64,000 nucleotides of DNA, from positions 29,448 through 93,447 of the forward strand of contig JAFNEN010000097.1 of NCBI GenBank assembly GCA_019343175.1, in the 5' to 3' direction. The position numbers and the translations under genes are program-made. Below, in pieces: positions 2,076-64,000 of the stretch. The first letter of the stretch is position 1; the number at the start of each line of letters is the position of its first letter. The DNA comes from Oedothorax gibbosus (taxonomy: Eukaryota). The notes beneath the pieces are model-generated. The model had not been told where the DNA came from. It saw only the letters and a list, made by a program, of their open reading frames with translations, and made no database searches.

Positions 2076-2098
2076 GTAATGGCAACCCTATTATTATA

Positions 2099-3777
2099 CC
2101 CCTGGCAAAAAGTATCCGATCACCGAAAGCAGTGCCTACGATACGTTCACATCAGTCGTCATTTTTTTTACAATTTTAATATTTTTTCAAACCTTAGAGG
2201 GTTTTTTGTGAAATATGACTAAATTTGTCAAGGAATATTAAATATAAACAGAATATAAAATTATAGTTAACAATTTTCACGAGAAAATACATTGAATCGT
2301 GAAGGAAAAAAGTTTCCGATCATCCTTTTGTGGGGAAAAAAATATTCGATCGCTAGCAAATGCAACGTATTTTAAGTGATATATGCAATTTTTTTTGGTC
2401 GGCGCGTGCGTACAAGATCTAAGTAAACAGTATAAAAGGTTGAATCGTTGTTTCACAGTTAAAACTAGTTTCGAATAAGCAAAAGTATGGATCGAAAGAA
2501 AGAATTGTCTTAAGAGCTAAAACTTTTAATTGTTAAACGCTTGAAAAGCGGAATATCTCAAAGAAAGGTTGCTCACACTTTTGCCTGTGCCCAAAGTACT
2601 GTTTGCGATTTTTGGAAAAAATATCGATCTACTAATGATGTCAAAAATCTTCCTCGAAGCGTTGGCCCACGTGCAACATCAAGTAGGTAAGACAAAAAAT
2701 CGGTTGATCTTGCCAAATCTATGAGAAGTTGTGCGTTGAAAGAACTTAATACCGAGTGATAGAAATATCGGGTAAAGGTATGTGCACGTACAGTGCGAAA
2801 CCGTTTAAACGCAAAACGATTTCACTTCTGCAAAGCCAAAACGAAACCATATATGGCTAAAAACCATAACAAAAGTCGTCTACAATGGTGCAAGAAACAT
2901 AAAAGCTGGTCTTCTGATGATTGTAAGAAGGTTATTTTTAGTTATGAATCTCGTATCTGCCTAGAAACTGGAGATGATGTTGGAATCTGTGTGGAGGAGA
3001 GCTGATGAAAGGTTCAAAAAAGATTGCCTCAAAACTAAAACTAAATATCAGCGTTCATTTTATAGTGTGGAGTTGTATGACTTCCGAAAGAGTCGGTAAA
3101 ATGTGTATAGTGTCGCGAACAATTAATTCTGAAGTGTATATTGACATTTTAGAACATTTTTTGATTCCTACCATCGAGGAAAGGTTTGACGACTCCTCCT
3201 ATTTCAATTTATCAAGATGATAACGCATCATGTCATCGAAGTAAACTGGCCAAGAATTTCTTAAATCGAAATGGAAATTCTCCAATAAAGACTATTGATT
3301 GGTCTGCAAATAGTCAGGATCTCAATATAATCGAAAATGTTTGGAATGTTTTGAAAAGAAACATTGATGAGAGAAGACCAACAAATATGGAAAAACTACG
3401 GCTAGCCATCAAGGAAAGCTGGAGTGAACTTCCATCAAATTTATGCCACGAGTTGGTCGCATCCATGCCTCGGTGCTTAAAAGCAGTAATCAAGGCATAA
3501 GGAGGACCCACTAAATATTAAAGTGACTTGATCGAATACTTTTTTCCCCAAAAAGGGATGATCGGAAACTTTTTTCCTTTACGATTCAATGTATTTTCTC
3601 GTGAAAACTGTTAACTATAATGTTATTTTCGGTTTATATTTAATATTCTTAGACTAATTTAGTCATATTTCACAAAAAACCCTCAAAGGTTTGAAAAAAA
3701 AAAAAATTAAAAAATGACGGCTGATATGAACGTATCGTAGGCACTGCTTTCGGTGATCGGATACTTTTTGCCAGAGG
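2099..3777 (+). mobile_element. Tc1/mariner-like DNA transposon (~1.68 kb) with ~140-bp terminal inverted repeats and a decayed transposase
   Basis: Left end 2099-2240 and right end 3640-3777 are near-perfect reverse complements (cctggcaaaaagtatccgatcaccgaaagcagtgcctacgatacgttca...). The internal ORFs encode a Tc1-type DDE transposase. Confidence 0.85.
2466..3500 (+). pseudogene. Tc1-family transposase pseudogene, frameshifted and with stop codons
   Basis: N-terminal HTH-like stretch (..ISQRKVAHTFACAQSTVCDFWKKYRS..) is interrupted by stops. The C-terminal part is split over three frames (ORFs 2793-3005, 3005-3220, 3186-3500) and contains YQDDNASCHRS and NSQDLNIIENVWNVLKRNI, matching the Tc1 DD34E catalytic motifs DNAPCH and SPDLNPIENLW. 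Confidence 0.75.
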
Positions 3778-4496
3778 TTGTACTGACGATGTTCATCTAG
3801 AACAAAATGCTTAACTGATAGAAACACACTGAGTTCAGTGTGCAAATAGACCAAAAACACATGTAAATAATCCTTATTCACAAAGTGAATAAGGTTTAAT
3901 TCTAGCATCCGTTGGCGAGATTATGTTCACCCTTTTTTTAGCTTGTCGTTTTGAAAAGACACAACCTAAATATTACCTTTTTCGACTTGGAGATTTCCCC
4001 CTAAATGCTTTCAAAATTAATGCTTTAATATCTCATCAAATAATGCAAAATAAATAATTATTTTTTATATCTGGGGTATTTTGAAGGTGCTGAACATTTG
4101 TATGTAAAAAAAATTGGGTGCTGCCTTTAGAAATTTCAAAGTTGGTACTCATTTTAATATGCAAACGACCCCATACCCTTTTTGTTGCCATTAATCAATT
4201 CCTAATGCTATTTTCTGAAAAATGGTTTTCTTTCACAAAAGCCCTTGATCAATAGCAGCCGAGTAACGAGGAGTGAAGCGGTTTTTTCCCCAGCTGTACC
4301 TTTGCTAAATATTTATCGGTTCACATAATATCAAAATCCATAATGTTTTCATCCAATGAAAATATTATTTTTTTTAAATAAATGAAATATTTAGGGTGCA
4401 GAAATCGTTTCCTGAAAAGCTGTTAAGGTTTACAGATTTTGTTTTAAATCATAGAAAGTTAATAAGTTTATTGGAATAATATTTTCTCTTTTACAG

Positions 4497-12819: not shown

Positions 12820-13142
12820 TTTTAGTTTTAGTTTTAATTATCGTCGCACTAGAGCTACACGAGGGCTATTGGCGACGGGCGTCGTATTGTAGAACCGCAG
12901 TCAATTGACGAGCCGACACCTGAGTAGGCACCCAACGCAACCGTTAAGGGCGACATCGTACGCAACGTTAGAACTTTGAAGGATATTTAACGTGCACTCC
13001 CGCCACACGGGGTATTATCTGTCGGACATTTTGGCTGCACGGGCCGTTTAAAGATCGGCAGTTTTTTTGGCGATGCCCAGACCCGAACCTGGTACCTTCC
13101 GCACCCTAGGCGAATGCCTAAACGACTGGGCTCCCCAGCCCC
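12820..13142 (-). mobile_element. tRNA-derived SINE, family A, full-length copy
   Basis: On the minus strand the head is ggggctggggagcccagtcgtttaggcattcgcctagggtgcggaaggtaccaggttcgggtctggg, with A and B boxes. The tail is a gttttag-type simple repeat. Other copies lie at 35800, 36676 and 52845. Confidence 0.8.
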
Positions 13143-13439
13143 TTTTATTTATTGTACTTGAATTGTAGAAACAATTTAATATTTCCCACGCTTGCTGGTT
13201 GTTGGTAGGGTGGACCCAGATCTAAGATACCGCCTGTTTAACTCTTGAAAGTAACTATTTCTAAAGTAGAACTTAGAAAACAGACTTTTTTTTTAAATAA
13301 TAAACAAAAAAAACTCAACGTCTTCATCATGTTAAGTTAATCATGTTCTAGTTAATCATGTTCACGAAACAGCTTAAACCCTTGTGTATTTTCAAATGTA
13401 AAAGCCTAAAAAGTAGTTGTGAGTTGCCGTACGGCCTAC

Positions 13440-35795: not shown

Positions 35796-35799
35796 AAGA

Positions 35800-36013
35800 G
35801 GGGCTGGGGAGCCCAGTCGGTTAGGCGTTCGCCTTGCATGCGGTAGTTCTCAGGTTCGGCTCCGGGCATGCCAAAATAACTGCCGGCCTATAAACGGCCC
35901 GTGCAGCCAAAAATTTCCGACGAATAATACCCCATGTAGAGGGAGTGCACGTTAAATATGCTCCAAAGTTCCAACGCTGCTTACGAAGTCGCCCTGAATG
36001 GTTGCGTTGGGTG
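35800..36013 (+). mobile_element. SINE family A, 5' part (tRNA-like head) of a copy split by a hAT-like insertion
   Basis: ggggctggggagcccagtcggttaggcgttcgccttgcatgcggtagttctcaggttcggctccggg... is collinear with the reverse complement of 12890-13142 up to ggttgcgttgggtg, where the insertion begins. Confidence 0.8.
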
Positions 36014-36675
36014 CATTGGCGGATCCAGGTGGGGGGGACCAGGGGGCACGTTCCCCCCCCCTCCCCCAGAAAATGCAAAGTTACACCGGATATTATTGAA
36101 TTTTCTAATTAAATAATTGATAAAGTCTATTTCTTTCTTAATTTTTGGTGGGAAAACGTACATTACACATTCTGAAAGACGTCATAATCCAGAAGACACA
36201 AATCTGTCAAAATCACGATATTACGCAAAGTTAAAGAAAAGAATTAACGAAAAGTAGCCAATCACAAAATTCGACGCAAATAAAATTTCGGAAATATTTT
36301 TTTTATTTATTAGGAGGGTGGCGCCGTTTATATTCCACACGTGCTATCTAACGGTGTATTTTTTTGTAAATGTTTTATTTTTAAGGTTTTGAGTTTGCTT
36401 ATATTATCCAAGTAACAATAAGTGTTAGTTCAACTCGGAAGTTTTTTTACGCTGTTCTCTCATATATAATGCATCAAATTTCATAAGAAGATTGGATTAT
36501 AAGAGTAAGTTATTAGCTTCTATATTTAATCAATAAGTAAGTTCTTATTTATAAAATTTGCTTGCAATTGCCTCAGTGATATTAAAAAATAATAATAAGT
36601 TAAAATGTTCTTAGTTGCTGATTTATAATATTTGTGAAGGTGGCATGTTAAATACTATCTTGTGGGTTTGTGTTT

Positions 36676-36935
36676 AGTTTGAATTATCGTCGCACAAAAG
36701 CTACACGAGGGCTATTGGAGACGGGCGTCGTAATTTAGAACCACTATCAAGTGACGAGAGACACCTGAGTAGCACCCAACGCAACCGTTAAGGGCGACAT
36801 CGTACGCAGCGTTGGGACTTCGGAGCATATTTAACATGCACTTTCACTACACGGGGTATTATTCGTCGGACATTTTTTAGCTGCACGGACCGTTAGTAGA
36901 TCGGCAGTTATTTTTGCGATGTTTTAAGGAACTTG
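36676..36935 (-). mobile_element. SINE family A copy (head degenerate), nested inside the hAT-like element
   Basis: tttgaattatcgtcgcacaaaagctacacgagggctattggagacgggcgtcgtaatttagaacc...ggcagttatttttgcgatg is collinear with 12830-13080. Confidence 0.75.
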
Positions 36936-38628: not shown

Positions 38629-38745
38629 GTTGGGTGCCTACTCAGGTGTCGGATCGTCACTTGATTATGGTTCTAAAATTATGAAAAACGTCGCCAATAG
38701 CCCTCGTGTAGCTCTAGTACGACGATATTTCAAACTAACCTAACC
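38629..38745 (+). mobile_element. SINE family A, 3' part (body and tail) of the copy split by the hAT-like insertion
   Basis: gttgggtgcctactcaggtgtcggatcgtcacttgattatggttctaaaattatgaaaaacgtcgccaatagccctcgtgtagctctagtacgacgat...caaactaacctaacc is the reverse complement of 12820-12925. Confidence 0.8.
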
Positions 38746-43388: not shown

Positions 43389-45346
43389 ACATAATTATAC
43401 AAATGTGTTGCCCCTCAATACAACACATCCACCCAATGCAAAAAAAAAAATTACACCAAACATATAAACAGTAGCCAATTTCTAATAAATTTATACAGAG
43501 ATAAGAGAGCTGTTAAAAAAAACTCAGTTTAGTACAAAATATAAGTAGGTTTCTAAGTGTGTAGTTATTTAATCTGTTTTATTTTTAATAGTTATTTTGA
43601 AAAATTGTCCTATAATGGTCATTTGTTGTATTACAACTATATGTTTGTTGTGGAAGTAGTCATTTTAAGATGTAACCCACTGTTTCAATTGACTGACCAA
43701 TAAAAACAAAGTGTTGTTGAACCGAATTGTTCTGTGGACCATTCTCGAGAACCAACCATGTTTTCTTTCAATAGATTATACTAGTTTAAAAGGAACCTAA
43801 TGTGGCATTAAAAATATTTTAGCTATAAATTACAGTTATTTAAACTTTTTTTTCTGGGAGTACAAGCACATTCATTATTTGGATGGAGTATACAATTTTA
43901 ACGTACATTGTCTATAAGCTAAACTGTCCCTTTGCCATCCCTTTTCAAGTACTCAAAAATTTCATATTCAATATCCTACATGCAGTACATAGACATTGTG
44001 ATTTGCCTGTATTTTTTTCCTTTACATTTCAATAAATTGGGTCAGAAACAGGAAGATAAGGTTAAGGCAATAATTATATTATTTCATTAGTTTTACTTAG
44101 CAAATAGGCTATAAGTGGTCTGTTTTTAATGTATCATTATTAGAAGTGTAGAGAAAAGATGGGAATTTGATATTGTTTTGGTTTTAATGATCACTGTCAT
44201 CTTTTCAAAGCTACTAAAAAGTCTTATGAAAAGGTGATGTCTATAAAGTTATTATTACTTCCTGCCTAACAGCTCTGATGAGGCTGAGAGCAGGACATAC
44301 AAGGAGCCTAAGATTCAGGGTGAGAGAAAAGGGCTATGCCCCTTGCCATTGTGGAGCCACTGTTTATCTATCTCACATCTTAGTTTGAATTGGTGGCCCA
44401 TTGTTGAAGTGGTTGGTGAGGGGGGAATATATAGGAAAATTGTGGCAGCTTTATCTTTTGGACCTAGTCTAAGGATGCCTAACCTAGGGAGTGAGAAAGA
44501 AGATGTGCTTTTATATAATCTTATCAACAATATAATTTTACATTTACATATAAATAACTATATTTAAACAACTAACAATAATAATTTATAATAAAAATGT
44601 AATTTGTTTTTGTAATAAAACAAATTTTCAACCTAAAAGTACTCTTCACTCTCTAGTATTTGGTTGCTGTTCTTTACATATATTTTTTAAATTTTTACCA
44701 TCAGTAGGGTAGACCGGGGGAATCGCGCCACCTTAAGGGAAATTGAATTTTCATGCAGAGTTGTGTTAGAATAATTGTAAATTGTAACAAACATAGCATA
44801 CTACATTTCATAACCTATCTTGTAGTGATTTTTTAAACTTGAAATCTTTAATAATAACTGAATAAAATTGTTTTTTCTAAAAGCTTGCAGAGTGGCGGTA
44901 TTACCCCTGGGTTTATGCCGCTAGGGGTTATGCCGCCACCCATCAAAACACAGCAAATAATCTATGAATAATGGCAAAGGATGTAATAAAGCACAACATA
45001 TAGCACTAAAATAGGTTGAATTAAATGAAGAATTTAATTAAGAAGTTTAACAAATATCGCACGTGTAAAAAATGGCTATTACTTGTCTCTGCTATGGTCT
45101 CTGCCATAGTCTTACTATTTTTAACAAAGTAATAAGTGTAATAAATGACTATTAGTTAGTCTATGCCATATTATACTTTAAATAAAAATTGTGTTGGCCT
45201 AGTAAATGGCTATTAAGTCTCCGTAGTTCTACTCTGAGCAAAAATCTCAAAGAAAAGGATTGGCATAACCCCGGTAAGACATAATGGCGTAGACGGCTTG
45301 TTTAGGGGAAGGTACATAGCCTAGCGTCCAAACTAACAATGTGATA

Positions 45347-48129
45347 GTCATTCCACGTCAAATCAACACACTCATTAAACATCACCGTCTCAGATTTTGC
45401 TGAAATTTGGAACAACAGTAGTGTTTATATAGTTATTTGTGAAATGAAAATTTTTATTCACAAATATTGATCTGTTTAAAAAATATGGCACTTTAAAAGT
45501 TCAAAAAATTGGTCAAAAAACCGCATCCGACCAATTTTCAAATTGACCTAGAAGCTTTCCTAATTAAGCTAGAGACCTGGGATAGGTGTCATCTGACAGA
45601 GATTTGTATGAACTTTTTAATGATATGTAACACACTTAGTATATATAAGATTTTATTTAAATTAAAATTTAATTAAATTTTAAAATTTAAATTTTTTAAA
45701 AAAATACATAATTTAAACTTTCGAAATTAATTACACGAATAGTTAGGACTCTTTCACATCATCTGACAAAATATCATGTTGGGATGAAAATGGGTTCATT
45801 GATAAAAAAATTCAAAACTAAAGCTTGTTTTTCATCAATAATTGTTTTTAATAATAAACTTGATCAACTAATTTTAAAAATGACCTAGATGGTTTCCTAA
45901 TTAATTTAGAAATGGTGTTAAGTGCTAGTTTACAGCAATTTATAAGAAAAATTTTAATAAAATATAACACACTCAGATTATAGAAGATTTTATTTAAATT
46001 AAAATTGAATTTTAATTTTTTTTTTTTAAAATGCTCTTAAAATTTTAAAATTATTTTTATGAATAGTTGGTATTTTTTTAAACAATATATGGGTAAAATA
46101 TCATTCTGGTATAAGAATTGGTTCATTGCTAAAAAAAATCAGAACTGAAGATTGTTTTTCATTAATAAATGTTTTCACTATTAACCTCGATCAAGCAATT
46201 TTTAAAATGACCTAGGAGGTTTCCTAATTCAGCGATAAACCTGTGGTAGGTTACATTTTACAACAATTTGTAAGACCTTTCTAATGACATGTAACAAATT
46301 TAGAATATAAAAGATTTAAATTAAATTACAAATAAAAAAGAAACAGTGGAGCTTGTTTATCATTATTGTTAGTTAATAATTCAGCTTAGGAATAACACAA
46401 GAATACTAATATTAACACTACCTTTATAATAAATCTGAATGATAACCTGAAGAAAGTTTCATTTGTAGTTTGAAAAAGCCACATTTGTTTGGAAGACATC
46501 ACTTTGAAGTAGAACATAACTTCTTCCAGTGGGAGTCACAGGATTAACTTTTGCTAGAATGTCCACTACTGACACCCACAAAACATCAGCGTTTCTTGGA
46601 TACGAGAATGATGCAGCTGGCCCAAATGGGTGAAGAAAAGTTGTCTTTACCTCATCAAGTTCATTTTTCTCCAATCTCTGTCTCTTTACTGAGCCTCCAA
46701 CTCCGTCGCAAGGCCCTTTACCATGCGATGTGGCTGAAAAGTGCCACTCTGCTTTTACATTAAAATCTGTCCCGGTGTATGCAGGAAACTGGTGGCTCGG
46801 GTACGTTTTGGAGAAAAATGAACTTAATGAGGTAAAGATAACTTTTCTTCACCCATTTGGGCCAGCTGCATCATTCTCGTATCCAAGAAACGCTGATGTT
46901 TTGTGGATGTCAGTAGTGGACATTCTAGCAAAAGTTAATCCCGTGACTCCCACTGGAAGAAGTTATGTTCCACTTCAAAGTGATGTCGTCCAAACAAATG
47001 TGGCTTTTTCAAACTACAAATGAAACTTTCTTCCGGTTATCATTCAGATTTATTATAAAGGTAGTGTTAATATTAGTATTCTTGTGTTATTCCTAAGCTG
47101 AATTATTAACTAACAATAATGATAAACAAGCTCACTGTTTCTTTTTTATTTGCAGTTTACTTTAAATCTTTTATATTCTAAATTTGTTACATGTCATTAG
47201 AAAGGTCTTACAAATTGTTGTAAAATGAAACCTACCACAGGTTTATCGCTGAATTAGGAAACCTCCTAGGTCATTTTGAAAATTGCTTGATCAAGGTTAA
47301 TAGTGAAAACATTTATTAATGAAAAACAATCTTCAGTTTTGATTTTTTTTAGCAATGAACCAATTCTTATACCAGAATATTTTACCCATATATTGTTAAA
47401 AAAATACCAACTATTCATGAAAATAATTTTAAAATTTTAAGTATGATTTTTAAAAAAAAAATTAAAATTCAATTTTAATTTAAATCTTAATCTGAGTGTG
47501 TTATATTTTATTAAAATTGTCTTATAAATTGCTGTAAACTAGCACTTAACACCATTTCTAAATTAATTAGGAAACCATCTAGGTCATTTTTAAAATTAGT
47601 TAATCAAGTTTATTAATAAAAACAATTATTTATGAAAAACAAGCTTTAGTTTTGAATTTATTTATCAATGAACCCATTCTCATCCCAACATGATATTTTG
47701 TCAGATGATGTGAAAAAGTCCTAACTATTCGTGTAATTAATTTCGAAAGTTTAAATTATGTACTTTTTTAAAAAATTTAAATTTTAAAATTTAATTAAAT
47801 TTTAATTTAAATAAAATCTTCTATATTCTAAGTGTGTTACATATCATTAAAAAGTTTATACAAATCTCTGTCAGATGACACCTATCCCAGGTCTCTAGCT
47901 TAATTAGGAAAGCTGTAGGTCAATTTGAAAATTGGTCGGATGCGGTTTTTTGACCAATTTTTTGAACTTTTAAAGTGCCATATTTTTTAAACGGATCAAT
48001 ATTTGTGAATAAAAATTTTCATTTCACAAATAACTATATAAACACTACTGTTGTTCCAAATTTTAGCAAAATCTGAGACGGTGAGGTAGAATTTTGCCGA
48101 AAAGTGTGTTGAATTGACGCGGAATGACT
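45347..48129. mobile_element. Foldback-like giant palindrome (~2.8 kb): two ~1.35-kb inverted arms, each built from three ~330-bp tandem subrepeats plus a unique ORF-bearing inner segment, around a ~130-bp unique centre (46678-46806)
   Basis: Left arm 45347-46677 is the reverse complement of right arm 46807-48129 at high identity (for example gtcattccacgtcaaatcaacacac vs gtgtgttgaattgacgcggaatgac at the ends). Subrepeats begin with gacctag(a/g)(a/t)g(c/g)tttcctaatt at 45545, 45881 and 46210, mirrored at 47265, 47575 and 47915. Mirror-image ORFs of 71 and 97 aa sit at the inner ends. Confidence 0.8.
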
Positions 48130-51800: not shown

Positions 51801-52844
51801 ATAATGAAATTAATTACCATTTACTTATATTGTATTCCTTTAAAGACCAAATTATTTTTTGTTAAATATTGCTGAATATTTAACAAAATATTGTTGTATT
51901 ATTGTTGTTTTTATTTTATTGTTAAATATTAAGATTTATAAACCGATCCCCTACCCACAGTGCGGAGCAATGGACAAAAATCGAAAAAGACTTTTTATTT
52001 GAGAAGTTTAGTGAATGTAATATTGATCTAGGATAGTGATACCTGCGATAGTATCGTAAAACGGTATTTTTAAGTCCAAAGTAATTATAATAAAAGCATT
52101 AGAATTACGTAGAGATTAGTAAGATTTTATGGAGCGGTAAAAAATAGTGTTACGATCTATATATATAAAAGGCAAAGTCCTGACTGACTCACTCACTCAC
52201 TGATCTATTCATTCATTCATTCACGTATCAACCCCCATCCCAAACTACTGGAGGTAGAGCTACCAAATTTTAGGAAAATATTCTTTTATTATTCGCAGGC
52301 GTCATTTAAGAAGCGATTTTTCGAAATTCGAACCCGAACGGGTGTAGGAAGGCAAAACGTGAGCCGTTTTCTCCATAGGAATAGCATTGTTATGAACTTT
52401 TAATTTATAAATTTCGTTTTTTAATTTGAAAAAAATTTCAACGCGTTCAGCGTGAGCGAAAATTAAGTATAAACACGTCAGAGCACGTGAGTTTAATTTG
52501 TAGGATTGTTATTTGAATATCATTATTTTATTTATAGAATTTAAATCTTTTGATTTTTTTTTGTTACCGAATTTAATTTAATTGACGTTTACAAATGGTA
52601 AGAAATGAAGATATTGCTACAATGTCTGATGGCAGTAAAGGCGATAACTATTCTAGATATAATGAATACTTCGAAGAAATGTCGATTCTTTCTGTTTGTC
52701 TTTCATGTGTGAATGTTTATGAAACTATAAATTTGGTACAGATGATATAATGGCCGATTGAATTTTGGCATTGGCGGCTTTTGGCGAAGTTGAAAATTTA
52801 ACGTAAGGGAGGCTATTTGCATCCAGTTGTATGGGTTAGGGTTA

Positions 52845-53224
52845 GTTTGAATTATTGTCTCACTAGAGCTATACACGAGGGCTATTGGCCACGGGCGTCT
52901 TAATTTAGAACCACAGTCAAGTGACGAGCCGACACCTAAGTGGGCACCCAATGCAACTTTTAAGGGCAACATCGTACGTAGCGTACGGGACTTCGAAAAA
53001 TATTTAACGAGAACTCCCACCACACTTGGTATTGTGCGGGACACAGGGCATTTTTGGCTGCATGGGCCGTTTATAGGTCAGCAGTTATTTTGACGAAGCC
53101 CGGACCCGAGTCTGGGACCTATCGCATGCAAGTCGAATGCCTTTACCGACTGGGCTCCCCAGACGACACCTCCGGAGGTGTATCGGAGGTGTTGCCCCCT
53201 ATCGGAGGTGTTGCCCCAGCCCTG
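52845..53224 (-). mobile_element. SINE family A, full-length copy with a 2x tandem insertion (atcggaggtgttgcccc) in the head
   Basis: gggttagggttagtttgaattattgtctcactagagctatacacgagggctattggccacgggcgtc...gactgggctccccag...ccccagccc is collinear with 12820-13142. Confidence 0.8.
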
Positions 53225-59210: not shown

Positions 59211-59336
59211 AATGGCTATGTGGGGGGGTGGCGGCATTGCCCAGGTTAGTGTGATTCCCCCGGTCCCTCCTAAACACTTGTCTTTTTTATTGATTTAGTT
59301 TATGTTTCAGGTAGCTTTCTTCATAAAAGCACAAAG

Positions 59337-62300
59337 ATGTCAGAGCCAGAAGAAGATGAAAATATAATTAAAAGAATAAACAGCAATGATTCAAGTGTTA
59401 TTTATAAAGCTTTAAAACAAATAAAACTGTTGTATTTCAATGATTCTAGCAAAATGCTACGATTTTTTAAGTCAGCAGTGATAAAGAAAATAATTTCTTT
59501 TATAGAGCATCCACATTTATCAACTTTATCTTTAAGTATCATTGCTGATCTTTGTATGAAAGATAATTATATCCCAGAAATCATTCAAAACTATGGAATA
59601 AATGTGTTATTAAGAAATATGGATAGAACAGTGAATGAAGACATTCGAAATAGAGCATGTAGGGCCCTTGGTAATATAGCTAATTCTAAAATAGGACTTG
59701 AAGCTGTTTATAGTGTGCAACCCATTCCTGTAAATCTAAGTTTTCTTAGTGGTACGGAAAACGTTAACTGTCAACAAACAGCTGCAAGGACCTTGCGCAT
59801 TCTTGCTAAAGATCATAAATCAAGAGATTTCATTATTCAAGAAAATGGAATAGGTTTGGTTTGTAATTTACTACATTCAAAATCCAAGGATGTCATTAAG
59901 TGTAGCATTAGGGCTTTAGCTGAACTTACAGAAAACTGTAACATTCATAGTGCTCGACAGGTGAAGGAAAGGCATGTTTTAAAAATACTGGTTGAACTTT
60001 ATTCCTTCTCCAATAAAGACATAAAAGAGCACATATTAGCAATTCTAAAAAATCTGTCTGCTATTGAAGAAATTAGATATGATTTATTGAAAATTGGTGC
60101 ACTAAAAATTTTTGCTGAAGCATGTATGGGTTCTGTTTCTTCTGAATCCTCTAGACATGCTGTATTAGCATTATGCTGTTTGTTGGACCGGCTTCACATT
60201 TGGGAAGGAAACGGAGTAACTAAAAAAGGTGGTTTAAAGGCAGTTCTTGAAATTCTCCGACAAAGTACATTTGAAGATATTCATAAACAAATCCTCATCG
60301 CACTTTATCCTCATTGTTATGAACCCAATATACCAGATATACTCTTTGAACAAGAAATAATAGAAATTTTGTTACAGGTTCTTAAACGTTTCATTGCATG
60401 TAACAAAGATGGACATTCGAACCCTGCTCTTGAATATTTCCATCTCCAGGTTCCATCTGAAGTGGATGGAGAGTTGAGTAGAAATTCCCTAACAAGTTAT
60501 AATTCTGAAGAGGATCTATCTTTAGAAGAGAAATCATATGAAAATTCCAACTTTCCCTCCTTTTCTGATTCCATATCAAAGTTTCCATTTATCCAACCCT
60601 ATCCTAATCCCATAAAGAGTTTTCCAAATTACAACTCTTCATCGCATTTAAACCTACACAGTTCTGGTGCTGAAAGCAATTGTAGTCCATGTAGTTCAAG
60701 AAGCAATAATCCAAGGTCTCCAAGCATATATTCTGATTCTGAAGTAAGTTCTCCTCTAATTGATCCTTGGTCACCCCAGTCGATTGTTAATGCAAATGAA
60801 TGTTTATCTCCTGTTTTTAGTTGCTCAGAAGATTCATGTGATGACAACAACTTTAAAAAAGTTGATGAAAAATATGTACAGCTTTCAAGTTTAACAAGAA
60901 CTGAAAAAACAACTACAAACGATATTTACGATAGTATCACAGTCTGTAGTCCAAAGTCATGTCAAAGTGCAGCAGTTGTGATTTCTATTCAGGATAACAA
61001 ATCAGACGCTCTTTTTACACCAATTCGTAAAGACAAAGATGAATCAGGTGGCTTTGAAGAGTTTCATGACGTAGAACCTCTTTCTTCAATTCTAAGTTGC
61101 TCAGAGGATACTTCTGATGACGATGACTGGATAGTAGTTGACGACTATATATATCCAAATTCAACCAATGTTACTCTGACCCATGAAACAAGTGTTTGTG
61201 ATTCAGTTGTGTGTAGTTCCTCAACCTCAGATCCAAATTTGGATTCTAAATCTGCCAAAGAGTGTGACACATCTTCAGCAACTCAGATTCTAGTTGATGA
61301 TGATATATTGCCAATTTCAATAAACGTTACTCCTATACATGCAAAAAGTGTTTGTGATTTAGCTGTGTGTGTTCCATCAACATCTCAAGATACCGCCATT
61401 ACGGATTCTAAGTCCGCCCAAAAATGTAATAAGTTATCTACAGAAATTTACAAAGATAGTAATCTTTCATATACTAAAAAAGAGAGTGTAAAAATTGAAG
61501 CCATGCATAGTCCAAAAGATTTATCACCTACAGTAAAACGTAAAGCAGACGTAGATATTATAGGAATACCTATTAAAAAAATAAAAATATCTTCTGCCCC
61601 GAACGTGTCCCATAAGCTAGAAATGTTTGCAGAAAAGTGTACTTTAGATCATTGTGTTTTACTATTCCTAGATCAATTATCATTTCATCTTGAAAAAAAA
61701 ACCAATTCTCAAATCGCCAGTAGAAGTTGCTTTTCAGTTTTAATGGACTATATAGTGTCTATCAATAACCCGAACCCCAAAGCTGAAAAGATTCTCCTAA
61801 ATTTAGTAAAAAATAGGTATTGTTTTGAAAAGCTCATTATGAGTGGGTTTGTGGCTGATATGGATAAAATAATGATTGTGAATCATTCATTGAAAAACTG
61901 TATTCGATGTTCAAGTATACATGATACTTATACTAAATTGATTTCAGCTTTAAGAACTGTAGCTGAATCCACATATGGAGTGGGTACTTTATGCCATATT
62001 TTATCCACTAAAGATGAAACTTGTCAATTTTATGCTGTCCATGCAATGTCACATTTAATTCATTCTACATGTTCGTTATTTAAACTAACATTTCAGTGTA
62101 ATGGTTTATCACTTCTCTTTAGTTCTCTTTTGAATGAATTAAAAGAAGTTAGTTCTTTAGCTGTGATATCCCTTTGTAATATATATCAAAAGCTACCAAA
62201 AACTACACTCATTACAAATCTTAATAAGTGTTGTTTTTCCAAATCATGTTGTTTGAATGTGTCACCTAATTGTATGTACTTGGAAGATGCCATTACATAT

Positions 62301-62846
62301 GATGTTACATTCCTTGTTGACAACCACAAAGTTTCAGCTTCACGGGAAAAACTTAGTAGAAATTCTGAATATTTTAGAGCCCTCTTGGATGGACACTTTT
62401 CTGAGAAAGGAAAGGATATTATTTTGATGGACTTAATATCAGTCACATCATTAACTGCAATATTTCATTTTCTTCATGGATGTTTAAATAATAATACTTG
62501 CCGGTTTCTAAAGGACCTGAATGTCGAAGAACTTTTGGAATTATTATCTGAAAGTGAACCATTTTTGTTGTCAGATATGAAAGCATTCATAATTGACAGT
62601 TTATGTCACAGCTTCACTCCTAAAGATATATTTAAAATTTACAAAGTTGCTAAGATTTTTGACTGTACAGTACTGTGCCAAAAGACTTTGCACTTTGTTT
62701 TGAGTACAAACATTTCACACACAAAATTTCTAGTTAAGTTTTTTGAATATATATCGAGCTTCAAAGAGTATAATGCTTTAAGTGATATAAAAATATTAAT
62801 ACAAAATATTTTTGCAGAGTGTCGGTATTATGCATGTAAAGATTAA
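59337..62846 (+). CDS. ARMC5: ARMC5-like protein: N-terminal armadillo repeats, Ser-rich low-complexity middle with two tandem ~45-aa repeats, C-terminal BTB/POZ domain. Uninterrupted 1169 codons
   Basis: A 3.5-kb ORF in a ~70% AT genome. ARM-repeat signatures (..NEDIRNRACRALGNIANSKIGLEAV.., ..NCQQTAARTLRILAKDHKSRDFIIQENGIGLVCNLLHSKSKDVIKCSIRALAELTEN..). BTB signature ..YDVTFLVDNHKVSASREKLSRNSEYFRALLDGHFSEKGKDIILMDLISVTSLTAIFHFLHG.. ARM followed by a C-terminal BTB is the ARMC5 architecture. The listed start is only the first in-frame ATG, about 25 nt after an acceptor-like tttcag at 59311; the frame is open upstream. Confidence 0.85.
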   Translation: MSEPEEDENIIKRINSNDSSVIYKALKQIKLLYFNDSSKMLRFFKSAVIKKIISFIEHPHLSTLSLSIIADLCMKDNYIPEIIQNYGINVLLRNMDRTVNEDIRNRACRALGNIANSKIGLEAVYSVQPIPVNLSFLSGTENVNCQQTAARTLRILAKDHKSRDFIIQENGIGLVCNLLHSKSKDVIKCSIRALAELTENCNIHSARQVKERHVLKILVELYSFSNKDIKEHILAILKNLSAIEEIRYDLLKIGALKIFAEACMGSVSSESSRHAVLALCCLLDRLHIWEGNGVTKKGGLKAVLEILRQSTFEDIHKQILIALYPHCYEPNIPDILFEQEIIEILLQVLKRFIACNKDGHSNPALEYFHLQVPSEVDGELSRNSLTSYNSEEDLSLEEKSYENSNFPSFSDSISKFPFIQPYPNPIKSFPNYNSSSHLNLHSSGAESNCSPCSSRSNNPRSPSIYSDSEVSSPLIDPWSPQSIVNANECLSPVFSCSEDSCDDNNFKKVDEKYVQLSSLTRTEKTTTNDIYDSITVCSPKSCQSAAVVISIQDNKSDALFTPIRKDKDESGGFEEFHDVEPLSSILSCSEDTSDDDDWIVVDDYIYPNSTNVTLTHETSVCDSVVCSSSTSDPNLDSKSAKECDTSSATQILVDDDILPISINVTPIHAKSVCDLAVCVPSTSQDTAITDSKSAQKCNKLSTEIYKDSNLSYTKKESVKIEAMHSPKDLSPTVKRKADVDIIGIPIKKIKISSAPNVSHKLEMFAEKCTLDHCVLLFLDQLSFHLEKKTNSQIASRSCFSVLMDYIVSINNPNPKAEKILLNLVKNRYCFEKLIMSGFVADMDKIMIVNHSLKNCIRCSSIHDTYTKLISALRTVAESTYGVGTLCHILSTKDETCQFYAVHAMSHLIHSTCSLFKLTFQCNGLSLLFSSLLNELKEVSSLAVISLCNIYQKLPKTTLITNLNKCCFSKSCCLNVSPNCMYLEDAITYDVTFLVDNHKVSASREKLSRNSEYFRALLDGHFSEKGKDIILMDLISVTSLTAIFHFLHGCLNNNTCRFLKDLNVEELLELLSESEPFLLSDMKAFIIDSLCHSFTPKDIFKIYKVAKIFDCTVLCQKTLHFVLSTNISHTKFLVKFFEYISSFKEYNALSDIKILIQNIFAECRYYACKD

Positions 62847-62995
62847 GAATAATAGTACACTGATAGTCTGTAAATAATTCACTATTATTATTAATCTTTT
62901 CTGTTCTTAAAAATATTAATGCAAAATATTTTTGCTGAGTGTCGGTTTTATGCAGGTAAAGAGATAAAGAGATTAAGAATGATACTGCAAAATTT
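62786..62995 (+). repeat. Tandem duplication (~95-bp unit x2) spanning the last 6-7 codons, the stop and the proximal 3'UTR of the ARMC5-like gene
   Basis: aaaaatattaatacaaaatatttttgcagagtgtcggtattatgcatgtaaagattaagaat vs aaaaatattaatgcaaaatatttttgctgagtgtcggttttatgcaggtaaagagataaagagattaagaat. Copy 2 (ORF 62919-63110) re-encodes QNIFAECRFYAGKE and reads on for ~50 more codons. Confidence 0.85.
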
Positions 62996-64000
62996 TTGGA
63001 TGGCTTGTCTTGAAAGTACCGATAAAAACAGTGATTTGATTGCGAAAAGGTGCACCAAATCTTCTGAAAATAGCTGTTATGTGCTTTATTATATCTACTG
63101 CTGTTTATAAAACACATATTGCAAATATGTTGTATACTATGTCTTGGTTCCGTCTTGCTTCAGCCTACTCATATAAATATATTGTTTTCAATTTCCAAAA
63201 CTGTTTCAAACAGGTTTGTTTTACACAAATAACTTTCACAACTGAGAAACTGGAAAATGTTTTTTTTTATTTGAATTTTAATAAATGTGGATTTAATGTT
63301 TTAATAAACTTTGTTTAGTCTTATATCTGCAGATTCTGAAAGGAGTCATCTAGAAAAACAAAAAGTAAAACATAATGCGGGGTTGTCTAATATTGCAATC
63401 TAAAACGCGTCAAAAAGTAAAACTGTGAATTGAAAATGAATTACAACTAGACACTTAAAAGACTATTTCAATGTACTCTTGAATTTTTTACAGATCTAAA
63501 AGAGCATATCAGTGCAAGCAAAGCTAGTGTACTCGGGCAAATTCGGGGTTTAACCGTGCAAAAATGTTGTGGAGCTGGAAATCCGCACTTAGAGGAATTT
63601 TAGTATTGATATTCTAGGTGTTTAATAGTATGTCTAAACCGAGTTTCAAGTTTTTAGGAGTTTCTTAAGAGTACTTAGAGCTTAAACCTCCTGTGGTTAA
63701 CCATCGAATCAAGGTGTCAATGTTTTATGGAACTATTTCTACATTTTTTGGAGCATCAGGTAGTGTGAATCAATTTTGAGCTTTGAAACATTGTTCTCAA
63801 GTTTAAACCCCATGTCATGCTAAAATCTCTAAACCCCTATAAAAGGTGAGACACTAAGATAAATATTATACTCTTAGTATGTTATTTAGGGTGTTAAATA
63901 GTACTTTTATATAAAAAATTTTACTATTTTTTAAGTCTAGAGCAATAATCCCCCTTCAAATTTTTTTGTTTTGACTTTCAATACAAAATTTTTGTTTTTC

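What the first reader, a model, noticed from the sequence alone, without database searches (positions are those of the whole stretch)
59337..62846. Intronless ARMC5-like gene (ARM repeats plus C-terminal BTB) in an intron-rich genome
This is the only long ORF in 64 kb. The N-terminal armadillo repeats, a roughly 350-aa Ser/Asp/Cys-rich disordered linker and the C-terminal BTB/POZ domain match ARMC5, the CUL3 substrate adaptor that targets RNA polymerase II subunit RPB1. In contrast to the neighbouring gene (many small exons, kb-scale introns) the coding region is uninterrupted, which suggests a retrogene origin or lineage-specific intron loss. About 25 nt upstream of the first in-frame ATG (59337) there is a polypyrimidine tract and AG acceptor (ttatgtttcag at 59301-59311). 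The frame is open upstream of that ATG, so the true start is not established; either a 5'UTR intron precedes the ATG or a short upstream coding exon is spliced in. Within the linker, two tandem ~45-aa repeats (YPNSTNVTLTHETSVCDSVVCSSSTSDPNLDSKSAKEC.. and LPISINVTPIHAKSVCDLAVCVPSTSQDTAITDSKSAQKC..; nt ~61150-61440) and repeated CSEDSCDDNNF and CSEDTSDDDDW acidic motifs suggest phospho-degron-like modules.
Basis: partly seen in the sequence, partly recalled or inferred. Interest (0 to 1): 0.6.

Follow-up and report, generated by a model that had tools for sequence, protein, structure and literature searches.

The report
Single-exon ARMC5 gene in spiders
This is the spider version of ARMC5, a well-known adaptor that hands RNA polymerase II to a CUL3 ubiquitin ligase; it is ordinary in function, but spiders carry it as one uninterrupted coding exon after losing at least six very old introns.

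Summary
Window 59337-62846 (+) is a 1169-codon ORF, the only long one in 64 kb. It carries a Pfam ARM_ARMC5 domain (157 bits, cut-off 79.9) and a C-terminal BTB domain (36.8 bits, cut-off 20.5). The window is from the dwarf spider Oedothorax gibbosus, and the ORF is the spider orthologue of ARMC5. The coding sequence is also uninterrupted in four other spider genomic loci. Tick, horseshoe crab, cricket and hemichordate orthologues have 3 to about 10 coding introns. Six of those positions are shared between lineages, and all six are absent in spiders. So the intronless state is an old, spider-wide loss of every coding intron, not a young retrocopy. Retroposition with loss of the parent is slightly favoured over in-situ loss, because the paxillin neighbour shared by tick and Limulus is missing near the spider loci. 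ATG 59337 is the true start, and the acceptor ending at 59310 closes a 5'UTR intron. The deposited model JTE90_029159 is truncated and mis-spliced and lacks the BTB domain. The linker repeats are real, but they are an Oedothorax-lineage duplication, so the degron idea has no support. Interest is low to moderate.

The parts
59289..59310 (+). Polypyrimidine tract plus AG splice acceptor (…ttgatttagtttatgtttcag|) that closes a 5'UTR intron
   Evidence: Sequence read. An equivalent acceptor lies 18-33 nt upstream of the ATG in all five spider loci, and the motif ttatgtttcag|g is identical in L004. A comparable site is expected in that interval at only 6-9% of random positions. There is no transcript evidence.
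59311..59336 (+). Inferred 5'UTR part of the coding exon (26 nt)
   Evidence: This follows from the acceptor position and the conserved start Met. In L004, L002 and L003 the equivalent stretch contains an in-frame TGA.
59337..62846 (+). Complete ARMC5 coding sequence: 1169 codons plus a TAA stop at 62844-62846, in a single exon
   Evidence: It is colinear with 12 spider orthologues. Ancestral intron positions fall after aa ~82, 91, 154, 208, 271 and 909, that is nt ~59582, 59609, 59798, 59960, 60149 and 62063. All are continuous ORF here.
59337..60407 (+). N-terminal armadillo-repeat solenoid (aa 1-357; Pfam ARM_ARMC5 hit at aa 64-345), the inferred substrate (RPB1) binding and dimerisation module
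   Evidence: Pfam. AF2 pLDDT is about 85-92 with 24 helices. Foldseek gives TM 0.7-0.8 to designed ARM proteins and importin-alpha. The function is inferred from human deletion mapping (PMC9226510).
60417..61637 (+). Disordered Ser/Asp-rich linker (aa 361-767)
   Evidence: pLDDT is below 50 throughout. It is poorly conserved and variable in length among spiders.
60765..60821 (+). Conserved linker island PWSPQS…CLSPVFS (aa 477-495), the 'WSP' short motif
   Evidence: Nearly invariant in spiders. A WSP motif is also found at this place in tick, cricket, hemichordate, annelid, brachiopod and amphioxus orthologues.
60795..60953 (+). Source unit of the internal duplication (aa ~487-539), including acidic motif 1, CSEDSCDDNNF, at 60822-60854
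   Evidence: It aligns to aa 579-631 with score 77, against 31±6 for shuffles, and 0 of 2000 shuffles reach it. Motif 1 is conserved in close relatives.
61071..61229 (+). Duplicate unit (aa ~579-631), including acidic motif 2, CSEDTSDDDDW, at 61098-61130
   Evidence: It lies in an insertion that is absent from P0002, P0003 and the other spiders.
61130..61427 (+). Tandem duplication with a 156-162 nt period (unit 1 at 61130-61265, unit 2 at 61286-61427)
   Evidence: the repeat finder families D1 and D2. Self-blastn gives 73.9% identity over 138 nt. The protein alignment scores 106, with 0 of 2000 shuffles reaching it. TRF did not call it.
61644..62231 (+). Second helical-repeat domain (aa 770-965), equivalent to the 'intermediate' region of human ARMC5
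   Evidence: AF2 shows 12 helices with pLDDT mostly 85-93. It is conserved across Bilateria. The corresponding human region contributes to RPB1 binding and holds the R593W mutation.
62256..62543 (+). BTB/POZ domain (AF2 core from aa 974; Pfam hit aa 986-1069), the inferred CUL3-binding module, with conserved G-H-F-S-E at 62391-62405
   Evidence: Pfam BTB scores 36.8 bits against a cut-off of 20.5. phmmer matches the KLHL22 BTB, aligning aa 983-1130, E 3e-6. G1019, F1021 and E1023 are invariant in spiders, with Tyr replacing Phe in several outgroups.
62523..62834 (+). Helical C-terminal extension after the BTB (aa 1063-1166), 3-box/BACK-like
   Evidence: AF2 helices. The KLHL22 alignment extends into it.
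61912..61920 (+). GT inside the ORF (caa|gtatac, exon end at 61914) that the deposited model JTE90_029159 uses as a splice donor; probably not a real splice site
   Evidence: The 932 nt of ORF that it would skip encode the conserved BTB half of the protein.
63494..63603 (+). Downstream segment that the deposited model uses as its last exon (acceptor ttttacag|, 36-aa tail, TAG at 63601-63603); probably an annotation artefact
   Evidence: The tail peptide maps here exactly. Sequence read.
62908..62962 (+). Direct repeat, in the 3'UTR, of the last 55 nt of the CDS (62788-62842)
   Evidence: 92.7% identity over 55 nt, E 1e-17. Seen.
63280..63308 (+). Two AATAAA polyadenylation-signal candidates (63280-63285 and 63303-63308)
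   Evidence: Read from the sequence. No A-rich tract or target-site duplication follows them.

Best explanation
The ORF is the Oedothorax gibbosus orthologue of ARMC5, the BTB-armadillo substrate adaptor of the CUL3-RBX1 ubiquitin ligase.

Mechanism. This is inferred from the human and mouse protein and was not tested here. The C-terminal BTB domain docks on the N-terminal cullin repeats of CUL3. [quoted passage not shown] A long disordered Ser/Asp-rich linker joins the two halves.

Gene structure. This is shown here. The gene has one coding exon preceded by a 5'UTR intron whose acceptor lies 26 nt before the start codon. That structure is shared by distantly related spider families. It arose by loss of every ancestral coding intron, at least six of them, three of which date back to the bilaterian ancestor. 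Wholesale loss of this kind points to a reverse-transcribed mRNA intermediate. The mode I consider most likely, though only slightly, is an ancient retrocopy that replaced its intron-containing parent and later acquired or kept a 5'UTR intron.

The linker repeats are a recent, lineage-specific internal duplication with no demonstrated function.
For: Identity:
- ARM_ARMC5 scores 157 bits and BTB 36.8 bits, both above their Pfam cut-offs.
- The best named hits are 'armadillo repeat-containing protein 5' of Araneus, Argiope, Trichonephila and Nephila.
- A full-length profile finds Limulus, tick, cricket, centipede, hemichordate, annelid, mollusc, brachiopod and amphioxus ARMC5.
- An arthropod outgroup profile retrieves vertebrate ARMC5.

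Architecture:
- AF2 gives ARM at aa 1-357, a disordered stretch at 361-767, helical repeats at 770-965 and BTB plus helices at 974-1166.
- The ARM fold is confirmed by Foldseek.
- The BTB aligns to KLHL22.
- G-x-[FY]-x-E and HxLHGC in the BTB are conserved across Bilateria.

Single coding exon: the genomic range translates directly to the protein in Argiope, Parasteatoda and Stegodyphus and in a linyphiid-like relative, L004, which has intron-like sequence upstream.

Outgroup introns:
- The tick has 7 coding exons, Limulus 6, the cricket about 10 and Saccoglossus 4, all with GT…AG contexts.
- Shared positions map to window residues ~82, 91, 154, 208, 271 and 909.

Start codon and 5'UTR intron.

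Relocation: the last paxillin exon lies 3.3 kb from ARMC5 in the tick and 8.8 kb away in Limulus (82-85% identical, E about 6e-50). It is absent from 59 kb upstream and 1.1 kb downstream in the window, and from ±10 kb in three other spiders.

Function of the domains in human: PMC9226510 and PMC11758996.
Against: - No transcript data were available, so the absence of splicing inside the ORF, the 5'UTR intron and expression itself are all inferred.
- No phylogenetic tree was built. Orthology rests on best hits, colinearity and one detected copy per species.
- The search for a second, intron-bearing spider paralogue had limited sensitivity.
- CUL3 and RPB1 binding were not tested. The region before the ARM_ARMC5 match is about 63 aa here, against 142 aa before the ARM domain in human, and that human stretch is required for RPB1 binding.
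- The missing paxillin neighbour is negative evidence over short flanks and a very long evolutionary distance.
- The tick also has an acceptor-like site 29 nt before its ATG. If real, it would favour retention of an ancestral 5'UTR intron and therefore in-situ intron loss.
Confidence: 0.85

Rival explanations
1. The gene has the same identity and function, but the introns were lost in situ. A partial cDNA of the gene's own mRNA recombined with the ancestral locus and erased all coding introns, leaving the 5'-most (5'UTR) intron. The gene never moved.
For: A 5'UTR intron acceptor lies 18-33 nt before the ATG in every spider locus, and an acceptor-like tgtctgttcag| lies 29 nt before the ATG in the tick. 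Retention of only the 5'-most intron is the classical signature of 3'-primed cDNA gene conversion (general knowledge). No parent copy or relic was detected.
Against: The paxillin linkage seen in both tick and Limulus is not found near any of the four spider loci examined. The tick acceptor is unverified. Retrogenes are known to acquire 5'UTR introns secondarily (general knowledge).
Confidence: 0.35
2. The deposited gene model is right. The transcript is spliced from the GT at 61915 to the acceptor at 63493, giving an ARM-only protein without a BTB domain, either as the main product or as a regulated isoform.
For: GenBank model JTE90_029159 (P0001) has exactly this structure. The acceptor ttttacag| is strong. 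Human ARMC5 has several splice isoforms (PMC9226510).
Against: The skipped 932 nt stay in frame to a stop and encode the most conserved part of the family, including the BTB. The 36-aa tail has no counterpart in any orthologue. The donor caa|gtatac is weak. The model also starts at internal Met95 and so omits a conserved N-terminus.
Confidence: 0.05
3. It is a young, species-specific retrocopy or processed pseudogene of an intron-containing ARMC5 located elsewhere in the Oedothorax genome.
Against: The same single-exon structure occurs in four other spider loci at 36-64% protein identity. The ORF is intact over 1169 codons, with domain-specific conservation. There is no poly(A) tract or target-site duplication, and no second spider copy was found.
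Confidence: 0.01
4. It is a generic ARM-plus-BTB protein that only resembles ARMC5 and has a different substrate.
For: Identity to non-spider ARMC5 is only 20-32% within the domains. Substrate binding was not tested.
Against: The family-specific Pfam model ARM_ARMC5 scores twice its cut-off. The profile aligns end to end with ARMC5 from many phyla, including the second helical domain and the linker WSP island. Intron positions in the outgroups are homologous.
Confidence: 0.03

Closest known systems
Human/mouse ARMC5 (CUL3-RBX1 substrate adaptor for RPB1/POLR2A; PMC9226510, PMC7617427, PMC11758996)
   Same: It has the same domain order: an N-terminal ARM solenoid, a disordered region, a second helical region, a BTB and a helical tail. 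It matches Pfam ARM_ARMC5 and BTB. The BTB G-x-[FY]-x-E segment and the linker WSP island are conserved.
   Different: It is 1169 aa, against 935 aa for the canonical human isoform. The stretch before the ARM domain is much shorter, and the linker is longer and expanded in this lineage. Identity to non-spider orthologues is only 20-32% within the domains. The human gene has several coding exons, whereas this one has a single coding exon. No functional data exist for any arthropod orthologue in the papers searched.
Annotated spider ARMC5 proteins (Araneus ventricosus, Argiope bruennichi, Trichonephila and Nephila species, Caerostris, Parasteatoda, Stegodyphus)
   Same: They are direct orthologues, 36-64% identical in the domains and colinear. 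The coding sequence is a single exon wherever genomic DNA was read.
   Different: Oedothorax has an extra insertion of about 190 aa in the linker, made of serial duplications. Its own deposited model is truncated and lacks the BTB.
Chelicerate outgroup ARMC5 (Limulus XP_022244805; Ornithodoros XP_064461130; tick 'BTB/POZ domain-containing protein Rnb')
   Same: Same family and architecture, with full-length profile alignment.
   Different: They have 6-7 coding exons with introns at conserved positions, and they lie next to paxillin. The spider gene has none of these introns and no paxillin nearby.
'Orphan' retrogenes (functional retrocopies whose intron-containing parent was lost)
   Same: All ancestral coding introns are missing at once, it is the only copy in the genome, it is functional and conserved, and it may have changed locus.
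   Different: Poly(A) and target-site-duplication hallmarks are not detectable. A 5'UTR intron is present. Relocation has not been proven.

Membership tests
ARMC5 | Family-specific armadillo domain (Pfam PF24768 ARM_ARMC5) above the gathering score | tested here: met
   157.2 bits against a cut-off of 79.9; aa 64-345 cover model positions 5-289 of 289.
ARMC5 | C-terminal BTB/POZ domain | tested here: met
   PF00651 scores 36.8 bits against a cut-off of 20.5, at aa 986-1069. phmmer matches the KLHL22 BTB with E 3e-6. AF2 shows a strand/helix BTB core at aa 974-1060.
ARMC5 | End-to-end colinearity with recognised ARMC5 orthologues (ARM, linker, second helical domain, BTB, tail) | tested here: met
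   The full-length profile aligns over positions ~5-1040 with Limulus, tick, Saccoglossus and Owenia proteins that are named ARMC5 or ARMC5-like. Multiple alignment.
ARMC5 | Orthology: the single copy that groups with ARMC5 of other animals | tested here: inconclusive
   One hit per spider species, and the outgroup profile retrieves vertebrate ARMC5.
ARMC5 | The BTB binds the cullin repeats of CUL3 | not testable with these tools
   Only the conserved G-x-[FY]-x-E and HxLHGC segments could be checked. Binding is shown for human ARMC5 (PMC9226510).
ARMC5 | The N-terminus plus the ARM domain bind RPB1 and promote its ubiquitylation | not testable with these tools
   Shown for human and mouse only. 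The spider N-terminal stretch is shorter.
Retrogene (processed gene copy) | Lacks all introns of the parental coding sequence | tested here: met
   Six ancestral intron positions, shared among tick, Limulus, cricket and Saccoglossus, are continuous ORF in five spider loci.
Retrogene (processed gene copy) | Poly(A) remnant and flanking target-site duplications | tested here: not met
   No A-tract follows the AATAAA signals and no flanking direct repeats were seen. These marks would be erased by the age of the event, so the result is uninformative.
Retrogene (processed gene copy) | Sits at a locus different from the parental one | tested here: inconclusive
   Paxillin is adjacent to ARMC5 in tick and Limulus but absent from the flanks available for four spider loci. 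The flanks are short, apart from the 59 kb upstream in the window.
Retrogene (processed gene copy) | An intron-containing parent gene exists elsewhere in the genome | tested here: not met
   No second spider ARMC5 was detected. If this is a retrogene, it is an orphan that replaced its parent.

The most novel reading that the evidence does not exclude
Spider ARMC5 is an ancient orphan retrogene. In the stem lineage of at least the entelegyne spiders, a retrocopy of ARMC5 landed away from the ancestral paxillin-linked locus. It recruited a promoter through a new 5'UTR exon and intron, and it then completely replaced the seven-exon parent. It has served as the only Pol II-directed CUL3 adaptor for hundreds of millions of years.
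Probability: 0.45. Interest if true: 0.35.

Novelty: new member of a known kind. Interest (0 to 1): 0.27.

Why it matters
The practical value is a corrected gene model. The public Oedothorax protein lacks its first 94 residues and the entire BTB half, so it would be misread as an ARM-only protein.

In evolutionary terms this is a clean, datable example of an essential single-copy regulator losing all of its ancient introns at once. One of the lost pieces is a 30-nt microexon shared by a tick and a hemichordate. The case could be used to study retrogene replacement versus cDNA-mediated intron loss in chelicerates.

It does not change what is known about ARMC5 function.

Tried and rejected
- The word-indexed homology searches reached only spiders, so the outgroups had to come from the exhaustive representative search. 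The third search gave ticks and vertebrates but no scorpion or mygalomorph, so the intron loss could not be dated more closely.
- The deposited protein P0001 is not on record in the contig index, so the annotated neighbourhood in the Oedothorax assembly could not be read.
- No coding similarity was found between the rest of the window and the ±10 kb flanks of three spider loci. No spider-to-spider synteny statement is therefore possible.
- Searches for paxillin, LIM or CASZ1 exons in the window, by tblastn at strict and relaxed thresholds and by a LIM zinc-finger regular expression, found nothing.
- The region upstream of the acceptor is not a dispersed repeat within the window.
- TRF does not detect the linker duplication; the repeat finder and blastn do.
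- The afdb50 fold library was unavailable. The PDB fold hits were dominated by the ARM domain, so the BTB fold was not confirmed separately by structure search.
- The literature search for the RefSeq name 'Rnb' in connection with ARMC5 found nothing relevant.
- Rejected readings: young retrocopy or pseudogene, generic ARM-BTB protein, and an upstream coding exon.


Full report
**1. Observation**

The window holds a single long ORF, at 59337-62846 on the + strand: 1169 codons, an ATG start and a TAA stop. The next longest stop-free run in any frame is 132 codons. With 31% G+C, the per-codon stop probability is 0.078, so an open run of this length has a chance probability of about 1e-41.

Pfam gives ARM_ARMC5 (PF24768) at aa 64-345 with 157.2 bits against a cut-off of 79.9. 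It gives Arm at 53.5 bits, and BTB (PF00651) at aa 986-1069 with 36.8 bits against a cut-off of 20.5. A sequence search of the PDB hits designed armadillo proteins, Vac8 and importin-alpha with the N-terminal third, and the BTB-BACK region of KLHL22 with aa 983-1130.

**2. Source and existing annotation**

The best database hit, at 99% identity, is 'hypothetical protein JTE90_029159' of the dwarf spider Oedothorax gibbosus. That model is only 801 aa. It begins at Met95 of the ORF, follows it to residue 859-860, and then switches to an unrelated 36-aa tail.

The tail is encoded at 63494-63603, about 650 nt beyond the ORF's stop codon. The model therefore uses a GT inside the ORF (caa|gtatac, 61914/61915) as a donor and ttttacag| at 63493 as an acceptor. 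This skips 932 nt that remain in frame and encode the most conserved part of the family, including the BTB. The tail has no counterpart in any orthologue. I regard the deposited model as truncated and mis-spliced. A minor alternative isoform cannot be excluded without RNA data.

**3. Architecture**

An AlphaFold2 model built on a 13-sequence spider alignment gives these regions:

| Residues | Feature | Confidence |
|---|---|---|
| 1-357 | Armadillo solenoid, 24 helices | pLDDT about 85-92 |
| 361-767 | Disordered stretch | pLDDT below 50 |
| 770-965 | Second helical-repeat domain | mostly 85-93 |
| 974-1060 | BTB core | moderate |
| to 1166 | Helical extension | moderate |

Foldseek against the PDB matches the N-terminal domain to designed armadillo proteins and importin-alpha with target-normalised TM scores of 0.7-0.8.

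In an alignment of 15 orthologues from spiders to amphioxus, three elements are conserved throughout:
- the BTB segment G-x-[FY]-x-E (G1019, F1021, E1023);
- the motif HxLHGC;
- large parts of the second helical domain.

The segment G-x-[FY]-x-E lies where CUL3-contacting residues sit in other BTB adaptors. That statement rests on my own knowledge and was not tested.

**4. Function (inferred)**

[quoted passage not shown] The intermediate region contributes to RPB1 binding and carries R593W, a mutation that abolishes Pol II binding (PMC9226510; PMC11758996). CRL3-ARMC5 removes excess or defective Pol II early in transcription (PMC7617427).

Because the modules are conserved, the spider protein most likely works the same way. 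None of this was tested here. The stretch before the ARM domain is much shorter than in human.

**5. Gene structure in spiders**

In three other species the genomic range translates directly into the full protein:

| Species | Protein | Genomic range |
|---|---|---|
| Argiope bruennichi | 1038 aa | 3117 nt |
| Parasteatoda tepidariorum | 1058 aa | 3177 nt |
| Stegodyphus dumicola | 958 aa | 2877 nt |

A 4-kb contig from the closest relative found (P0002, 61% identical overall) also carries an uninterrupted ORF, with AT-rich, intron-like sequence upstream. The single coding exon is therefore shared by Linyphiidae, Araneidae, Theridiidae and Eresidae. The family assignments are from my own knowledge. 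The structure is not specific to Oedothorax.

**6. Gene structure in outgroups**

The exhaustive profile search found 113 representatives with E≤1e-30. The named ones include ARMC5 or ARMC5-like proteins of Limulus, the ticks Ornithodoros and Amblyomma, the centipede Strigamia, the cricket Anabrus, two hemichordates, an annelid, abalone, Lingula and amphioxus.

Mapping proteins onto genomic DNA gave the following, with GT…AG contexts at the junctions:

| Species | Coding exons | Gene span |
|---|---|---|
| Ornithodoros (tick) | 7 | 5.9 kb |
| Limulus (horseshoe crab) | 6 | 25.9 kb |
| Anabrus (cricket) | about 10 | 69.7 kb |
| Saccoglossus (hemichordate) | 4 | 6.6 kb |

Projected onto the window protein, intron positions coincide between lineages:

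| Window residue | Lineages with an intron there |
|---|---|
| ~82 | tick, cricket, hemichordate |
| ~91 | tick, Limulus, hemichordate |
| ~154 | tick, Limulus, cricket |
| ~208 | tick, Limulus, cricket |
| ~271 | tick, Limulus, cricket |
| ~909 | all four |

The first two positions delimit a 30-nt microexon present in both the tick and the hemichordate. At least six introns are therefore ancestral to arthropods, and three of them to bilaterians. All six are missing from every spider locus. Loss of every coding intron at once is what a reverse-transcribed mRNA intermediate produces.

**7. Retroposition or in-situ loss?**

In favour of relocation:
- In the tick, paxillin ends 3.3 kb upstream of ARMC5, and CASZ1 lies downstream.
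- In Limulus, the last paxillin exon lies 8.8 kb downstream.
- That exon is 82-85% identical between the two species, E about 6e-50, so it would be easy to detect.
- It is absent from the 59 kb upstream and 1.1 kb downstream of the ORF in the window, and from ±10 kb around the Argiope, Parasteatoda and Stegodyphus genes.

In favour of in-situ loss:
- Every spider locus has a polypyrimidine-AG acceptor 18-33 nt before the ATG.
- The tick has a similar site 29 nt before its ATG.
- Keeping only the 5'-most intron is the classical outcome of cDNA-mediated conversion.

No poly(A) remnant or target-site duplication is visible, as expected for an old event. No second spider ARMC5 was detected. I put retroposition with replacement of the parent at about 0.45-0.5 and in-situ loss at about 0.35. 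Neither is established.

**8. Start codon**

The frame upstream of ATG 59337 is open for only 21 codons. The Met aligns with the start of eight spider orthologues. The acceptor string ttatgtttcag|g is identical in the window (ending at 59310) and in L004.

In L004, Parasteatoda and Stegodyphus an in-frame TGA lies between the acceptor and the ATG, so no upstream coding exon can be joined there. An acceptor of comparable quality falls in the same interval at only 6-9% of random positions. The likely structure is a non-coding exon 1, a 5'UTR intron, and one coding exon that begins at 59311.

**9. Linker and repeats**

The linker (aa 361-767) is 18.7% Ser and 9.1% Asp. It contains a conserved island, PWSPQS…CLSPVFS at aa 477-495. 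Its WSP motif recurs at the same place in tick, cricket, hemichordate, annelid, brachiopod and amphioxus proteins. The first acidic motif (aa 496-506) follows this island directly and is conserved in close relatives.

Most of aa ~505-700 is an insertion that is absent from all other spiders, including the closest relatives. It was built by serial duplication:
- aa 487-539 aligns to aa 579-631 with score 77, and 0 of 2000 shuffles reach that.
- aa 600-648 aligns to aa 653-701 with score 106, again with 0 of 2000.
- The latter pair is visible in DNA as a repeat with a 156-162 nt period.

The second acidic motif and the tandem units are therefore recent copies. Nothing supports a degron role for them.

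**10. Verdict**

The intronless coding sequence is real and results from an ancient, spider-wide loss of all coding introns. The start codon is settled. The deposited model needs correction, and the degron speculation is unsupported.

This is a new, correctly delimited member of a well-known family with an interesting but not surprising gene-structure history. Interest is about 0.27.

Noticed in passing
window 59619-61914 plus 63494-63603: The public protein JTE90_029159 (801 aa) for this locus starts at internal Met95. It splices from a GT inside the ORF to a downstream segment, so it lacks the N-terminus and the whole BTB half.
   Followed up: yes
window 62788-62842 and 62908-62962: The last 55 nt of the coding sequence are repeated 120 nt downstream in the 3'UTR, at 92.7% identity. 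The origin and any significance are unknown.
   Followed up: partly
L010 1-6703 and 20181-25905; L011 44681-44944: ARMC5 lies next to paxillin in both a soft tick and the horseshoe crab (last paxillin exon 82-85% identical), in different orientations. CASZ1 flanks it in the tick. This looks like an old chelicerate microsynteny block, and the spider loci examined do not show it.
   Followed up: partly
L006 3347-3376; L009 3302-3331: A 30-nt microexon inside the first armadillo repeats (window residues ~82-91) is present in both the tick and the hemichordate Saccoglossus. That implies a bilaterian-age microexon. Limulus and the cricket each keep only one of its two flanking introns.
   Followed up: partly
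window 60765-60821 (aa 477-495): A 'WSP' short motif within the otherwise unconserved disordered linker is kept from spiders to amphioxus. It is a candidate functional linear motif of ARMC5, and I did not find it described in the papers read.
   Followed up: partly
window 2098-3778: A degenerate Tc1/mariner element. ORF fragments match HTH_Tnp_Tc3_2 and DDE_3, and the element is flanked by inverted repeats of about 250 nt (2098-2351 and 3530-3778, 91% identical).
   Followed up: partly
window 45346-46674 and 46808-48129: A large, near-perfect inverted duplication: 1.3-kb arms, 95% identical, about 130 nt apart, with internal repeats of about 470 nt. Each arm contains an ORF of about 70-97 aa that has no Pfam match.
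   Followed up: no
window 12822-13146, 35796-36014, 36663-36921, 38629-38745, 52832-53162: A dispersed repeat family of about 110-330 nt, 78-86% identical, in both orientations. It is probably a SINE or MITE-like element.
   Followed up: no
P0005 (Larinioides sclopetarius), alignment A1 columns ~740-990: Another spider orthologue has its own independent internal duplication of about 250 aa in the linker. Expansion of the linker by duplication therefore seems to recur in spider ARMC5.
   Followed up: no
tick orthologues P0179, P0197, P0209: RefSeq names the tick ARMC5 orthologues 'BTB/POZ domain-containing protein Rnb'. No paper linking that name to ARMC5 was found.
   Followed up: partly
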